64,000 nucleotides of DNA, taken from Octopus vulgaris. Its lineage: Eukaryota. Positions within the stretch are counted from its first letter, which is position 1. Every line of letters begins with the position of its first letter. Shown piece by piece: positions 17,053-54,000 of the stretch. A program made the translations under genes and the position numbers. Under the pieces are notes generated by a model, which had not been told where the DNA came from, did no database searches, and saw only the letters and a program-made list of their open reading frames with translations. The stretch covers positions 64,294,001 to 64,358,000 of the forward strand of contig OX597814.1 in assembly GCA_951406725.2 (NCBI GenBank). Direction: 5' to 3'.

Positions 17053-17254
17053 TTGCGGTAACGGTTATATTATCTTATATTATAAGATAATCTGTTGATG
17101 TATATGTAAATGGATGAATGAATGAATTATCCTTTGTTTACCGTTAACATGGAAAATTCAATAAACAGTTACCAAGGTATCAAAATTCACGCAAGTAACA
17201 AGGAAGTAGCGACCTATTCAAAGGTAGAAACTCCGAGTTAATGTGCAGTATATA

Positions 17255-18030
17255 TATCTGTCCTTCCAGCTCAGACATCGGTATACTTAGTAAATACATC
17301 TTAGATAAGTATATCCCTACATTAATCAATAAATTAAAACTTTGCTTATGGTCTAATTCTTTTCAAGTTGTAGATTGGTTTACTGCTATTACTAATAAAG
17401 TTAACACTAAATTTATTCAGTTTGACATATCTAGCTTTTATTCATCATCAACCCTATTATACTCAATAAGGCACACTGGCATGCACACAATAAAGCAGGT
17501 CTCTCTAGAGAGGAAATTAATGTGGTACTGGCTGTTAGAAAATCAATCATTAAGTTCGATAACAAGTTGTGGGTCCGGAAGGATACTCCCAATGCGTTCG
17601 ATGTCGTAATGGGAAGTTCAGATTCCGTCAAATTGCGGATTTAGTCGGCATATATATACTTCATGAAATGGCCGACCAGTTCCCAGACATCTGTGGAGGT
17701 CTATATCGAGATGATTGCTTGCTTTACCTCCAAAACATTTCCAATCAAAAAATACAGAAGGTTAAGAATAGATTAGTTAGGTTTTTTCGTAGAATGGGCT
17801 TTCACATCGTTTTTGACGATGAGTGAACTAAAGCTAACTTCTTAGATAATACTCTTAATTTGCAAAGTAACTCATACTTCCCATACCACAAACCTTCCAC
17901 TAACCTCAAATATATTAGTCTTTCCAGTAATCACGCTAAGGCAATTACTAAGAATTTAGTTTAAAATATTCCAGTTAGATTGTCTAAACTATCCGCCAAT
18001 GTTGACATTTTTAACGATAAGGCAGAATAA
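17255..18030 (+). pseudogene. Penelope-like reverse transcriptase core, frameshifted
   Basis: FIQFDISSFYS, FDVVMGS, GGLYRDDCL (YRDD), NFLDITLNL, YHKP, SNH motifs. Confidence 0.9.
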
Positions 18031-21328: not shown

Positions 21329-22563
21329 CGGGGGTTGGACAAAATAATGGAAACACCTGGCATCATATCATCATAATTTTGAAATATCTATAAAATAGTC
21401 AAATGATTGTTTATTTTTATGGGTTTTTTTATTTATTATTAGTGTTGCTTAATATGTTTTGCTAAAATTACTGTTTCTTTTCGGATATTATCAGAAAACG
21501 GTAATTAAGATTCATTAGAATGACAGATCTATCGAACTTTCAAAGAGGTCAAATTGTTGGTGCTTGTATGACAGGCGCTTGCATAACGAAAGCAGCCGAA
21601 ATGTTTCGTGTATCAAGAATTACTGTCTCGAAAGAAATTACAGCCTTTGCGAAAAAGGGAAAAACCTCGCCGAAACAAAACTCTGGAAGAAAACCAAAAC
21701 TTTCAGATAGAAAACGTCGGACTCTTACGCGAATTGTTAGAAAGGATCACAAAAGTACAGCTCCCAAAATTACTGCAGATCTTAATGACCACCCCGAGAA
21801 CCCAGTTTCCACAAAAAATATTCACCGGCAGCTGCACAAAGCCGGATTTCACGGGAGGGCTGCAATCAGAAAACCACTACTTTCAAAAACAAACGTTGCA
21901 AGGCGTTTACAGTAGAGAAAAAACCTACAGAATTGGTCCCTAGAGCAGTGGAAGAATGTTATTTTCTTGGGCGAGTCATCGTTTACCCTATTTCCGACCA
22001 CCGACCGAGTATACGCGTGGAGACAGCCAAAAGAAGTATTTGACCCAGACTGCCTTCTTCGAACACGGAGGAGGATATGTGATGATCTAGGGTGGGGGCT
22101 ATATCTTGGAAATCCGCCGGCCTAATGGTTTCCCTTAATGGCAGAATTAATATTCAAAACTATTTAAGCATTTTACCTGATCAAATTCATCCTATGGTTG
22201 CGGAAGTGTTTCCGGAGGGAAACGCAATCTTTCAGTATGATAATGCAACAATTCACACAGCGAAAGTTGTTACTGAATGGCACGAGGAACATTCTAGTGA
22301 AGTTGAACATCTTATCTGGCCACCACAGTCCCTAGATCTCAATATCATTGAACATTTATGGTGCATTTTAGAAAAACAAATAAGGAGTCGATATCCTCCA
22401 CCATCATCACTCCTGTAAATTCCTTTGGAAGCAATTCAGACTTTGTACGAGTCTATACCGCGTAGAATTCAAACTGTAATTACTGCCAAAGGCGCTCCTG
22501 CCCTATATTAAAATTAATTTGTTTGAAATTTTTAGCTGTTTCCATTATTTTGTCCAACCCCTG
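21329..22563 (+). mobile_element. Tc1-like transposon with disrupted DD34E transposase (about 21520-22511)
   Basis: TIR ggggttggacaaaataatggaaaca at both ends, TA on the right; MTDLSNFQRGQIVGA, FQYDNATIH, SLDLNIIEHLW. Confidence 0.95.
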
Positions 22564-26670: not shown

Positions 26671-26883
26671 CATGAATGTATGTATATACGATCACACACA
26701 GGCACAGCTACAGAGATGCAAATATACATGCGTACATGAGTATGAAAATGTATCTGTTACATATATATATATATATGATGTAACAAAAACGCAATAAAGG
26801 ACAATAAAACATTCGGACAGATAGACGATACAATGGCGAACAGGAGAAACAACAATTAGAAGGAGAGGCAAAAAAACCCAGCT

Positions 26884-27026
26884 CATTCGTGGCCTTCTTT
26901 CCTCAGACAAGTTACCAGAAGTCCTGACTGTTTCGGGCAGTTACACTTGAGACAGTTCGATCTGGTTGCCCCCAAAAAAGTCTAAGCTAAGAGCATTAGA
27001 TTTTTTTGTAAGAAAGCTAACGAATA
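26884..27026 (-). ncRNA. Permuted hammerhead-like RNA, copy B
   Basis: Minus strand: gggca-accaga..ACTG-TC-TCAAGT..tgccc-GAAA-CAGT..tctggt-a-ACTTGT-CTGAGGA. Confidence 0.65.
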
Positions 27027-27112
27027 TGTACGGCAACAAAGACAAAAAATGGAGAACATGATACACAATTACAAATATAAACAAGAAGAATATAACAGCA
27101 AGTGTTATTATT

Positions 27113-44516: not shown

Positions 44517-44648
44517 ATTTATTTTATAGAAGGAGCTTCTACAGGACTAGAACTGTTTCATTCAAATGAAATCATCAGGAAGCTTCCTGATGATTTCATT
44601 TGAATGAAACAGTTCTAGTCCTGTAGAAGCTCCTTCTATAAAATAAAT
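44517..44648. repeat. Perfect 132-bp palindrome with no spacer, axis AAG|CTT at 44582/44583
   Basis: Checked base by base. Confidence 0.95.
44581..44631 (+). ncRNA. Minimal type I hammerhead ribozyme (mirror copy on the - strand)
   Basis: AGCTTC-CTGATGA-t.ttc/gaa.t-GAAA-CAG..CTG-TA-GAAGCT. Confidence 0.75.
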
Positions 44649-47295: not shown

Positions 47296-47357
47296 GTTTT
47301 TTTGTATTTATATTCGTGTAACATCGTCCGTTTTTTTTTTTGTCCTTGTTTCGTATA

Positions 47358-47499
47358 CATTCGATCCTTTTTCCAAGGAATCTAATGCTCATACTTCAGT
47401 TTTTCCTTGGGGCTGGCCAGATTGGAGCAATCTCAAGATTAATCAGCCGAAATTGCGAGGATGATCCGGTTCTTGACTGAAGATTAAAGGCTTCGAATG
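47358..47499 (+). ncRNA. Permuted hammerhead-like RNA, copy A
   Basis: ggctg-gccagatt..GCAA-TC-TCAAGA..cagcc-GAAA-TTGC..gatccggt-TCTTGA-CTGAAGA. Confidence 0.7.
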
Positions 47500-47557
47500 A
47501 CCCGTCCGTGTTTTTTGCATCGTCTATTTGGATGTTTTGCGTTCTTGTCCCATTTTG

Positions 47558-47590
<33 letters not shown>

Positions 47591-48038
47591 TTCTTTTCTG
47601 TTCTCCAATATATATATTTATATATATATATAATTATGACGCGAAACTCTGTAACCCTTTGCTTGACCTTCCCTTCCTTCCTGTCTGTCTTCCTCTTTGC
47701 CTTCTCTCTCCTTCTTATTTTTCACCCTTCTGGTTTCCTTTCCTCTCTATCTCTCTCTCACTCTCACTCCTCCTCATCTCTCACACAGCCGAGTCGACTA
47801 CTTCCTTTCGCTGGCGGCCTCCTACAAGTGAACATGCTTTTTTCCTGCGCTCTTGAATTTTTCCATCGTTTAGGCTAAAAAAAGGCCCTCAATGTTTGTT
47901 TCCTTGTCCTGTTTTTATTCTTTATTTGTACTGTATTTTTTTGTATTTGAATTTTCATTTTGTATTTGTTTTTTATTTGTATTGTTTTTACGTCCTGTTT
48001 TTGTCACATTTTTTTCTTTCCTTGTTTTTACTCCTCTG

Positions 48039-48160
48039 CAAAGGAATTTTATTTAATTCTTTCGGAGGAAGGGCTAGTTCGACGAGTTGTGTTCTGTCCT
48101 TACCTTCGAAACACGCATGGAGTCGAACTAGGGACAGCTGACGAAGGGGAATTTTCCTTG
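48039..48160 (+). ncRNA. Permuted hammerhead-like RNA, copy D (divergent subfamily)
   Basis: gaagg-g-ctagttcgac..TGTG-TT-CTGTCC..ccttc-GAAA-CACG..gtcgaactag-GGACAG-CTGACGA. Confidence 0.75.
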
Positions 48161-48407
48161 TATTGTTTGTCTTGTACTCTGTTTTTTCGTTGTTAAAAAA
48201 AGTCCCTTTCCATGTTTGTTTTTACGTTTTCGTTTCTCGTTGAGTTCTACGTCTACTTGTGGTGTCCTGTACTCACATATATATATTTATATATGCATGT
48301 ATATATACATGTAGATGTAGGTACGTACATATATGTATGTATGCACATATTTTATTTATTAATTTATTGCATGACTGAGCGCCCTCGCGTCGTTTCGTTT
48401 CTTTTCT

Positions 48408-48492
<85 letters not shown>

Positions 48493-48868: not shown

Positions 48869-48913
<45 letters not shown>

Positions 48914-48984
48914 GTAAAAAATAAATACAAACATGGACAAGAACAGAAACACCAAGGAGACGACACAAGAACCACAGGACGGGA

Positions 48985-49021
48985 CATTCGAAGCCCTCAG
49001 TCATCAGTCAAGAACCAGATC
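48985..49021 (-). ncRNA. Partial permuted hammerhead, copy C (CUGAUGA strand only)
   Basis: Minus strand gatctggt-TCTTGA-CTGATGA-ctgagggc-ttcgaatg, homologous to 47463-47499. Confidence 0.6.
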
Positions 49022-49183
49022 ATCGGGCTTCTGCCTACCAAATCCATTTAATCAGCTTTAATCAGCACGAGGCTATAGTAGAAGACACTTGCCCAAGGTG
49101 CCACGCAGCTGGACAGAACTCGGAACTATGTGGTTAAGAGGTAAGCTTCTTACCACTCAGCTACGCCTGTGCCTGTATCATTT

Positions 49184-51599: not shown

Positions 51600-52860
51600 G
51601 GCCATTATCGGCTCAGGCTACGACTAACTCAATAGCACCACCTGGAAAAGTCTTTTAGTTAATTATTTCGGGGCACGATGGACCACCCAAGTAGAGAGTT
51701 GTTGTTGGTTGAGACGTATCCAGGTGTAGGTCGTTTATCCGGTATTTCCTGGAGGAATTTGTCTAGGTACCGTTTGAAAGTTGTGGTGTCTTTTTCTACT
51801 TTAATTTCTTTCGGGATAACATTGAAAAGTGCCGGACCATTTGTAGTGAATAAATTGTGTCGCAATGTTTTTATGTGAAGTGATCTCGATCTTTGTAGGG
51901 GACGCATTGCACGGGGGCCTAGTCTTGGGTGCATTGTAAACATAATACCGATATCATTTAGATAATATTGGTGGAATATTTTCCACATGGTGCAAATAAG
52001 GTATCGCTCACGTCGGCGTTGCAGAGTATAGAGTTTCAGCTGTTTAAATCGAGTCCAATAATCTCTCTCTATATAAACGGCAGTTTGTCTGTGCGTGTTT
52101 CTGTGTGTCTGTTTTCTCGTACCCTCACTCTGACCACAGCTTTCAACCGATTCTGATGAAACTTGACACACACATAGCCCAATGTCATAATTCAAAACTA
52201 ACGCAGCGAAAATTTTGAAAAGTTCCCCCAGTTCTGAAAAAAATCGATAAATTCGACATGGGGTCGAGAATCAGAAACACGAACCACAAACTGTCTAGGA
52301 GACGCAACTCCACCTTTTTTAAATCTCAAAAAAAAATTTACCATCATTTTTTTCCATTTTTTTGCTATAACTCTCTAAAAATGCTTTATAGTTATTTTCC
52401 TTACAAACCTGAGCAACGCCGGGCGATACTGCTAGTCAAGTATAAATGGCATCATCATGCCATTTATTTTTTTAGTGATTGATCTTTGTGGCGCTTCAAT
52501 CCTCATTATAGCTTGTTTTTTGTAGGGGAACTCGAATGGCAGCAGTATTCGAGGTGGGGGTCTAGCGAATGTGGGGAAGAGAAGGATGATGGCTTCATGA
52601 TCCCAAGATTGAAAAGTTCTGAGAATCCAGGTTCTGCGGATAACATCGACTTATTTATTGATACGCACACTCCAGCTAAGGCTCCTGTTGAAGTTACCGA
52701 ACTCTCTAATAGTATCCGACGGTTCAAGTAGGTCTCCCGACGGTAGTATGTATGGTTGTTTGAGTGTGCCCTCTTTTCCAAAGTGAATACGCTCAAATTT
52801 CTCTTCGCTCAGCTGAATGTTGTTTTTTGTTTTTTGTGCCCACTGGATTACTGCACATAG
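51600..52860 (-). mobile_element. CR1-like LINE 3' region interrupted by a Helitron
   Basis: PHLEYCC, LYTLQRRRERYL, FKRYLDKFL motifs. Confidence 0.85.
52062..52435 (+). mobile_element. Non-autonomous Helitron
   Basis: A|TC...gagcaacgccgggcgatactgCTAG|T; no TSD. Confidence 0.9.
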
Positions 52861-53249: not shown

Positions 53250-54000
53250 TGAAACACCTTAAATTTCAAACAAATTTATGGCAGTAATTACAGTTTGAAT
53301 TCTACGGGTCATGGCCTCATCACAGATCCTCCCCCACCTTTAACAGTTTGAAGAAGGCAGTCTGAGTCAAATGTTTCTTTTGGCTGTTTCCACACGTATA
53401 TTCAAACGGTGGTCTGAAATATGGTAAAGGATGACTCGTCCGAGAAAATAACATTCTTCCATTGCTCTACAGACCAATTTCGTAGGTTTTTACTCCAATC
53501 TGAACGCTTTGTAACGTTTGATTTTGAAAGTATTAGTTTTCTAATTGCAGCCCTCTTGTGAAATCAGGCTTTGTGCAGCTGCCGGCGAACAATTTTTGTG
53601 GAAACTGGGTTCTCGAGGTGGTCATTAGGCTCTGCAGTAATTTTGGGAGCTGTACTTTCGTAATCCTTTCTAACAATTCGCGTAAGAGTCCGTGGTCCCT
53701 ATCTGAAAGTTTTGGTTTCCTTCCGGAGTTTTGTTTCGACGAGGAGATTTTTCCCTCTTTCTCAAAGGCTGTCATTACTTTCGAGAGAGTACTTCTTGAT
53801 ACACCAAATATTTCGGCTGTTTTTGTTACGCAAGCCATACGAACACCAACAATTTGACCTCTTTGAAAGTCCGATCGATCAATCATTTTAATGAATTTTA
53901 ATTTCCATTTTCTGATTATGTCTGAAAAGAAACAGTAAGTTTAGCCAAACATATTAAGCAACAATTGATAATAAATGAAAAAAACATAACTAAAAAATAT
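53250..54000 (-). mobile_element. Internally deleted Tc1 copy (same family as 21329-22563)
   Basis: DFQRGQIVGVRMA..KQNSGRKPKLSDRD. Confidence 0.9.

What the first reader, a model, noticed from the sequence alone, without database searches (positions are those of the whole stretch)
26884..27026. Independent minus-strand copy supplies covariation for the permuted hammerhead
Against copy A, the stems change sequence but keep pairing: stem III ACTG/CAGT vs GCAA/TTGC; pre-GAAA stem GGGCA/TGCCC vs GGCTG/CAGCC; outer stem TATTCGT/ACGAATG vs CATTCGA/TCGAATG; pseudoknot ACCAGA/TCTGGT. The core is CTGAGGA with a GUC site. One U-U mismatch sits at the base of stem I.
Basis: seen in the sequence. Interest (0 to 1): 0.75.

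Follow-up and report, generated by a model that had tools for sequence, protein, structure and literature searches.

The report
Core-split knotted hammerhead in animal retroelement
This stretch is a worn copy of a predicted self-cutting RNA (hammerhead ribozyme) whose strands come in a knotted order with the catalytic core opened and re-closed by extra helices; the fold sits in thousands of mobile repeats of this animal genome and at the tails of Naiad jumping genes reported to lack such a ribozyme, but cutting has not been tested.

Summary
The copy belongs to a non-coding, ~790-bp Penelope-type repeat family (B); copy A is its sister family. A core pattern matches 18,187 places in the genome against 296 for the reversed control. 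A-versus-B alone is confounded by ancestry (1 borderline pair), but a nine-group alignment of 86 copies gives 10 of 29 proposed pairs significant under a tree-aware null (stems I, II, III and the 'pseudoknot'), none in the closing helix X. Order is cut site-GAAA-CUGAnGA, as in type SGC, but the G10.1 strand is detached from CUGAnGA and lies upstream; a standard stem II is rejected. Two corrections: the 'pseudoknot' is stem III continued through a predicted kink-turn, and the U-U at stem I is a private mutation (0 of 29 siblings), so this copy is likely impaired. Truncated copies of families A and C begin 5-8 times more often just after the predicted cut. The same fold ends published Naiad consensus sequences. 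The scan noted this fold before, in this and other genomes; I found no paper describing it. New variant of a known ribozyme; cleavage untested.

The parts
26778..27105 (-). 5'-truncated remnant (~330 bp of a ~790-bp monomer) of non-coding repeat family B, between microsatellites; fixed 3' end followed by (TA)n
   Evidence: 87-92% to the 39 best siblings, 2095 first-look candidates
27020..27026 (-). outer stem P0, 5' strand
   Evidence: (91% paired, no two-sided change)
27010..27017 (-). helix X, 5' strand (pairs with the strand that follows CUGAnGA)
   Evidence: covariation not significant (best E 0.29)
26973..27008 (-). hairpin Y, between helix X and the G10.1 strand
26967..26971 (-). stem II 5' strand, starting with G10.1, detached from CUGAnGA
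   Evidence: 2 of 5 pairs E<0.001; G in 80 of 83 rows with a letter
   Evidence: 2 of 7 pairs E<0.05; GA in 70 of 86
26951..26956 (-). stem III 3' strand and GUC triplet; predicted scissile bond between 26951 and 26950
   Evidence: (3 of 4 pairs E<0.05); cut site inferred by analogy
26945..26950 (-). stem I 3' strand
   Evidence: 3 of 6 pairs E<0.05
26931..26939 (-). stem II 3' strand (C11.1) and core GAAA
26914..26930 (-). stem III 5' strand, 3-nt bulge, GA, and 3' strand of the kink-turn helix
   Evidence: bulge A>C private to this copy and 1 sibling
26900..26912 (-). stem I 5' strand (private A>T at 26907 gives U-U) and core CUGAGGA
   Evidence: T in 0 of 29 siblings
26884..26899 (-). helix X 3' strand and P0 3' strand
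47358..47500 (+). copy A: same fold in sister family A (~850-bp monomer; AUC site)
48028..48150 (+). copy C: same fold in a more distant family C, inside a complete ~820-bp monomer at 47590-48410 (GUU site)

Best explanation
The stretch is a decayed copy of a predicted self-cleaving hammerhead carried near the 3' end of a non-coding Penelope-type repeat that is likely mobilised by Naiad retrotransposons. Shown: strand order is [G10.1 strand of stem II] - [cut site] - [GAAA] - [stem I-CUGAnGA]; stems I and II are pseudoknots; these helices covary across families; the strand after CUGAnGA cannot form stem II. Inferred: the molecule is the same strand circle as Eckert's SGC/CSG/GCS types, opened at a fourth place, between A9 and G10.1; helix X and hairpin Y would close that gap as a four-way junction so that stem II still stacks on the A9-G12 pair; a kink-turn would bend stem III back into the helix that ties stems I and II together. 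Inferred function: tandem transcripts would cut themselves into unit-length RNAs that serve (linear or circular) as templates for reverse transcription into (TA)n sites; the pile-up of genomic 5' ends just after the predicted cut is the footprint expected of that. This particular copy is likely impaired (U-U at the first stem I pair, single ribozyme, 5'-truncated).
For: 18,187 core matches vs 296 control. 17 of 21 unselected copies with stems I+III have an upstream 5-bp stem II, 0 of 21 a standard one; 0 of 114 viral chance matches have stems I+III. Pair counts 89% paired, 15 of 35 pairs with two-sided change, slid controls 24-47%; family C group 89%, 13 of 38; standard stem II 20% paired. Tree-aware test on 86 copies: 10 of 29 pairs E<0.05, top 8 of 3003 column pairs all predicted, standard stem II 0 of 5. 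Only 7 of 86 have G after CUGAnGA. 5' ends next to (TA)4, minus-strand loci: family A 60 before the cut, 489 in the 16 nt after, 99 in the next 16; family C 13 before, 107 after. Same fold ends Naiad_Obim and Naiad_Ovul consensus sequences and that family has 728 matches here, with RT-like fragments upstream in L176, L177, L338. Monomers 792-849 bp in partial tandems and inverted pairs, longest ATG frame 84-149 aa.
Against: No cleavage assay and no raw RNA reads. Helix X has no significant covariation (0 of 7; 54-91% paired) and is not above decoy; P0 has no two-sided change. The tree-aware test is my own R-scape-like code; groups were joined by nine hand-set structural anchors, the core letters were forced by the search pattern, and 40 of 187 hits were dropped as truncated or unassigned; A2/A3 were picked after a pairing filter. 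In the all-pairs reading only 2 pairs reach E<0.05. The 5'-end test failed to inform for family B itself (16 minus-strand hits, control 483), anchors differ in how many copies they match, and the hot spot at +10/+11 lies in a TA-like linker, so microhomology contributes. No sequence link ties families A, B, C to a Naiad ORF; RT fragments had no Pfam hit. Nested folding programs do not produce the knotted core.
Confidence: 0.76

Rival explanations
1. The fold is real and selected but is not an efficient cis ribozyme: it cuts only with a protein or a second copy, or it mainly serves as a binding element for the reverse transcriptase.
For: Break between A9 and G10.1 has no precedent in the papers searched; Penelope hammerheads cut poorly in vitro and act as dimers (PMC4209133, passages); 8 of 9 predicted Xenopus retrozymes did not cut (10.64898/2026.07.22.740005); SGC types are slow.
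Against: Full core, NUH triplet (H = C, U or A in 82 of 86 rows counts) and all three stems are kept across unrelated sequences; genomic 5' ends pile up right after the predicted cut in two families.
Confidence: 0.13
2. It is an ordinary type-SGC hammerhead: the strand after CUGAnGA pairs with the pre-GAAA strand (allowing a short insertion) and X, Y, P0 are flanking structure.
For: Block order S-G-C and the helix linking stems I and II match type SGC; family C can form a weak G-U-rich version (2 of 29 picked copies score 4 of 5).
Against: 20% paired in A2; 0 of 5 pairs covary, 8% paired at 10.1-11.1; predicted probability 0.000 in four families.
Confidence: 0.04
3. The pairing is an artefact of shared ancestry of a few repeat masters and of structure-guided alignment.
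For: A-versus-B alone gives 1 borderline pair; cross-group columns were anchored by hand.
Against: Four major and three single-copy perfect stem II helices of different sequence; tree-aware null exceeded by 10 pairs; same layout by eye in a coral Naiad.
Confidence: 0.04
4. The ribozyme reading is right but families A/B/C are moved by another partner (a HERO-like element or a canonical Penelope), not by Naiad.
For: L343 carries the same fold downstream of a fragment that looks like the C-terminus of a HERO-type element (motif recognition recalled, no Pfam hit); a canonical minimal hammerhead palindrome is also in the window.
Against: Fixed 3' ends in (TA)n, partial tandems and inverted 5'-truncated copies match the Naiad description.
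Confidence: 0.2

Closest known systems
Type-SGC and type-CSG hammerheads (Eckert et al. 2023, PMC10085705; read parts 1-6 of 8, supplement searched for 5 terms, figures not seen)
   Same: Non-circular order of cut site, GAAA and CUGAnGA; short linker from stem I to stem II; a helix joining the other sides of stems I and II, directly connected to stem III.
   Different: The paper assumes CUGAnGA and its adjacent stem II strand cannot be separated by more than 1-2 nt and so counts six permutations; here they are separated, with helices X and Y at the gap and a predicted kink-turn on stem III. Its SGC/CSG examples came from metatranscriptomes and metagenomes; these are in an animal genome in thousands of copies.
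Non-LTR retrozymes (PMC7229834, passages; bioRxiv 10.64898/2026.07.22.740005, parts 1-3 of 5)
   Same: Non-coding tandem monomers with one hammerhead each, many copies, proposed non-autonomous partners of Penelope-like elements.
   Different: Described with type I hammerheads only; here a knotted core-split form and 790-850-bp monomers; circular RNA not shown here.
Naiad Penelope-like elements (Craig et al. 2021, PMC8557442; passages, supplement part 1 and searches)
   Same: (TA)n insertion, partial tandems, inverted truncated copies; the same fold ends the Naiad_Obim and Naiad_Ovul consensus sequences and a coral record.
   Different: Reported to lack canonical hammerheads (only 'core' and 'half core' motifs noted); families A/B/C encode no protein.
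Pseudoknot (PK) hammerhead, PDB 8YDC (PMC11300833, parts 1-2 of 6)
   Same: Hammerhead core embedded in a pseudoknotted frame; A9-G12 sheared pair stacked on G10.1-C11.1.
   Different: A9, G10.1, C11.1 and G12 close a contiguous short stem there; here the backbone is open between A9 and G10.1.

Membership tests
Hammerhead ribozyme | Core CUGAnGA, GAAA and NUH triplet | tested here: met
   CTGAGGA, GAAA, GUC in this copy; pattern 61-fold over control
Hammerhead ribozyme | Stems I, II, III around the core, with G10.1-C11.1 and A15.1-U16.1 | tested here: met
   this copy has U-U at the first stem I pair (decay)
Hammerhead ribozyme | Site-specific self-cleavage | not testable with these tools
   only indirect: 5' ends of truncated copies
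Classical types I/II/III | Circular order CUGAnGA-GAAA-cut site, nested three-way junction | tested here: not met
   order is cut site-GAAA-CUGAnGA; no Rfam hit
Type-SGC hammerhead | Block order S-G-C | tested here: met
Type-SGC hammerhead | Helix joining the distal sides of stems I and II | tested here: met
Type-SGC hammerhead | Block C intact: stem II strand within 0-2 nt after CUGAnGA | tested here: not met
Kink-turn | 3-nt bulge followed by tandem G-A/A-G between two helices (definition recalled) | tested here: met
   GA on the non-bulged strand in 70 of 86 rows; the bulged-strand GA was forced by my pattern, so it is no evidence
Kink-turn | Sharp bend, L7Ae-family binding | not testable with these tools
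   needs structure or binding assay
Non-LTR retrozyme | Non-coding tandem monomer with one hammerhead per unit | tested here: met
   tandem spacing 699-850 bp listing; this copy itself is a truncated single unit
Non-LTR retrozyme | Type I hammerhead | tested here: not met
   core-split permuted form
Non-LTR retrozyme | Expressed as circular RNA | not testable with these tools
   only assembled contigs were available
Naiad-dependent element | (TA)n target, fixed 3' end, partial tandem and inverted copies | tested here: met
Naiad-dependent element | Sequence shared with, or mobilisation by, a Naiad ORF | tested here: inconclusive
   family D is the published Naiad tail; A/B/C share the fold but no linking sequence was found

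The most novel reading that the evidence does not exclude
A seventh natural hammerhead wiring: the SGC/CSG strand circle opened inside the catalytic core and re-closed by a four-way junction, active as a monomer, present in over ten thousand copies in one animal genome, and being the missing ribozyme of Naiad retrotransposons from corals to cephalopods; nematode Naiads keep the intact type-CSG form, which suggests the split form arose by re-opening a tandem repeat. A conserved extra contact between N1.6 and the second base after A9 may lock it.
Probability: 0.6. Interest if true: 0.85.

Novelty: new variant of a known kind. Interest (0 to 1): 0.7.

Why it matters
It breaks the stated rule that the CUGAnGA block cannot be interrupted, which every descriptor search has relied on, so a very abundant class of animal ribozymes would have been missed. 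It offers a direct, cheap test of the open point that Naiad elements thrive without hammerheads, moves non-circular permutations from environmental RNA into animal genomes, and supplies many natural variants for structure work and for a model of how permutations arise from tandem repeats.

Tried and rejected
Rfam at gathering and E<=10: no hammerhead. Random 400 kb of genome: no full copy, two partial hits, too sparse for a density. All-pairs covariation on the A/B alignment: 1 borderline pair. Standard stem II: rejected. Simple score for helix X: not above decoy. 5'-end test for family B: uninformative. ORF upstream of A, B, C copies: none; apparent long shared flanks were other repeats. Pfam on RT-like and HERO-like fragments: nothing at threshold; Atlas gave unnamed clusters and one RVT_1 lead at 19% of members. 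Peptide look-up in the Naiad supplement failed because long lines are cut. Sequencing runs: no RNA holder listed; contigs laid on copy C could not show ends, strand or circles. Look-up by sequence among earlier findings: nothing. Literature searches that returned no description of this wiring; Weinberg 2015, Perreault 2011 and Lunse 2017 were not read, figures and Stockholm alignments of Eckert 2023 were not seen, and subscription papers are not covered.

Full report
Observation. BLAST of the window finds copy A at 47336-47500 (68% identity), and a motif scan finds a third, more distant copy C near 48108. A strict descriptor for stems I and III around a cut site-GAAA-CUGAnGA order gave 5 hits in 464 kb (window plus 40 random 10-kb stretches), of which the three window copies have a perfect 5-bp upstream stem II; the reversed sequence gave 0. 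Rfam has no match.

Host element. The window lies in a 2.8-Gb genome; a 21-nt motif from a published octopus Naiad tail matches 728 times against 0 control, so the host is inferred to be octopus-like. B, A and C each head a family with 2095, 3511 and 2610 first-look candidates, of which the tool scored 40 each. Members have a fixed 3' end running into (TA)n, variable 5' truncation, partial tandems and inverted copies; monomers are 792, 849 and 822 bp with no long frame. The finding is a ~330-bp 5'-truncated remnant of family B. It differs from the majority of its 29 siblings at 4 of 143 positions; the T that makes the U-U pair is in 0 of 29. A and B are homologous (65% over 450 nt).

Anatomy. 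P0, X, Y, the 'pseudoknot' helix and stem III are nested and appear in the minimum-energy fold (z -2.96); stems I and II cross them. The bulge plus tandem GA between stem III and the 'pseudoknot' helix is a kink-turn signature (lead from earlier scan notes; definition recalled); the GA that my pattern did not force is present in 70 of 86 rows.

Relation to known permutations. Eckert et al. define three blocks that cannot be interrupted and six orders; type SGC has the order seen here, a short linker from stem I to stem II and a helix tying stems I and II. Here block C is broken: after CUGAnGA only 7 of 86 rows have G, whereas the upstream strand starts with G in 80 of 83. Among the first 30 pattern loci, 21 of 32 matches have stems I and III; 17 of those 21 have the upstream stem II, 0 a standard one, 1 a decoy; 0 of 114 chance matches from viral contigs have stems I and III. 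Joining the ends shows the same strand circle as SGC/CSG/GCS opened between A9 and G10.1 (inference). In families C and D helix X follows A9 directly and hairpin Y abuts both X and G10.1, which would give a four-way junction with the A9-G12 pair stacked on G10.1-C11.1 as in the PK hammerhead structure, where that segment is contiguous.

On MAFFT alignment A2 (20 A/B-group copies, chosen after a pairing filter) 89% of cells pair, 15 of 35 pairs change on both sides, slid controls pair 24-47%; the standard stem II pairs 20%; the C group gives 89% and 13 of 38. These shuffles ignore ancestry, so I wrote an R-scape-like test (G-test with APC, null by moving parsimony substitutions along the tree). 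On a sequence-only alignment of 64 A/B copies only 1 of 10,440 pairs reached E=0.05: A versus B is one branch and proves little. On 86 copies from nine groups (sequence-only within groups, hand-anchored between them; 40 of 187 hits dropped as truncated or unassigned, then thinned) 10 of 29 proposed pairs had E<0.05 in the two-set reading (II 2, kink helix 2, III 3, I 3, X 0), 2 in the all-pairs reading, the top 8 of 3003 pairs were all proposed, and the standard stem II scored 0 of 5. The best unproposed pair links N1.6 with the second base after A9: Watson-Crick in 72 of 86 against 65 of 86 for its stem I partner, a possible tertiary contact, not significant (E 1.7).

Abundance. The core pattern matches 9104+9083 places against 156+140 for the reversed pattern; many subfamilies appear.

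Footprint of cutting. Counting minus-strand loci (one row per locus in the listings) where (TA)4 lies within 15 nt of an anchor: family A has 60 in the window -24..-9 before the predicted cut, 489 in +1..+16, 99 in +16..+31. Of 24 distinct loci listed, by eye 22 start after the cut (4 exactly at +1) and 2 before. Family C gives 107 after against 13 before, controls 22 and 16. Against this: anchors do not match equal numbers of copies, the hot spot at +10/+11 is TA-like, and family B was uninformative. No raw RNA reads were available.

Partner. Craig et al. report that Naiads insert into (TA)n and lack canonical hammerheads. Their Naiad_Obim and Naiad_Ovul consensus tails carry this fold; that family D is in this genome with RT-like fragments upstream (recognised by eye, no Pfam hit; weak Atlas lead). 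By eye, the record filed before Naiad_Anas (a coral by the metadata order) has the same split layout with a perfect X and Y, and the record before Naiad_Hpol (a nematode by that order) has an intact type-CSG hammerhead. I looked only at the 8 passages that six short motifs returned, not at all 54 Naiads. That A/B/C ride on Naiad is inference from shared target and ends; L343 shows the fold also behind a HERO-like fragment.

Mechanism. Shown: sequence, order, covariation, copy number, 5'-end bias, presence in Naiad tails. Inferred: four-way junction, kink, self-cleavage of tandem transcripts to unit RNAs, possible circularisation as for type I retrozymes, reverse transcription by Naiad RT. This copy is most likely a damaged bystander.

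Novelty. Ten searches found no paper with a hammerhead opened between A9 and G10.1 or with permuted hammerheads in animal elements; a single extra nucleotide there is known; the July 2026 retrozyme preprint uses type I models only. The scan itself has noted this fold many times in this and other genomes; those notes are unchecked, and I used them as leads for the kink-turn, four-way-junction wording, HERO link and 5'-end test. Verdict: real; new variant of a known ribozyme class; interest 0.70.

Noticed in passing
window 44517-44648: Perfect 66-bp-arm palindrome next to (TA)n holding a canonical minimal type I hammerhead (CUGAUGA, short stem II, GAAA, GUC) on each strand: a tail-to-tail Penelope-type repeat end.
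   Followed up: partly
PMC8557442 supplement, Naiad record before Naiad_Hpol: By eye a complete type-CSG hammerhead with a 13-bp stem I/II linking helix at a nematode Naiad 3' end; Eckert et al. knew two CSG sequences, both metagenomic.
   Followed up: partly
L343:300-962 (G000:C1:74073600-74078500): Same core-split fold downstream of a fragment resembling a HERO-type C-terminus (recalled motif), with an open 319-aa mariner-like transposase frame at L343:3201-4157 nearby.
   Followed up: partly
anchored alignment: N1.6 covaries with the second base after A9 better than with its stem I partner; possible base triple.
   Followed up: partly
window 21505-21912 (+) and 53536-53940 (-): Two decayed Tc1-like transposase fragments in inverted orientation, 88% over 347 nt (family recalled).
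   Followed up: no
window 51662-52270 (-): 203-aa frame resembling the C-terminal part of a CR1/L2-type LINE ORF2 (recalled).
   Followed up: no
window 17199-17606 (+): 136-aa frame with a QFDISSFY motif typical of a Penelope-type reverse transcriptase (recalled).
   Followed up: no
window 48882-49024 (-): A further fragment similar to the 3' part of family A, inverted relative to copy A.
   Followed up: no
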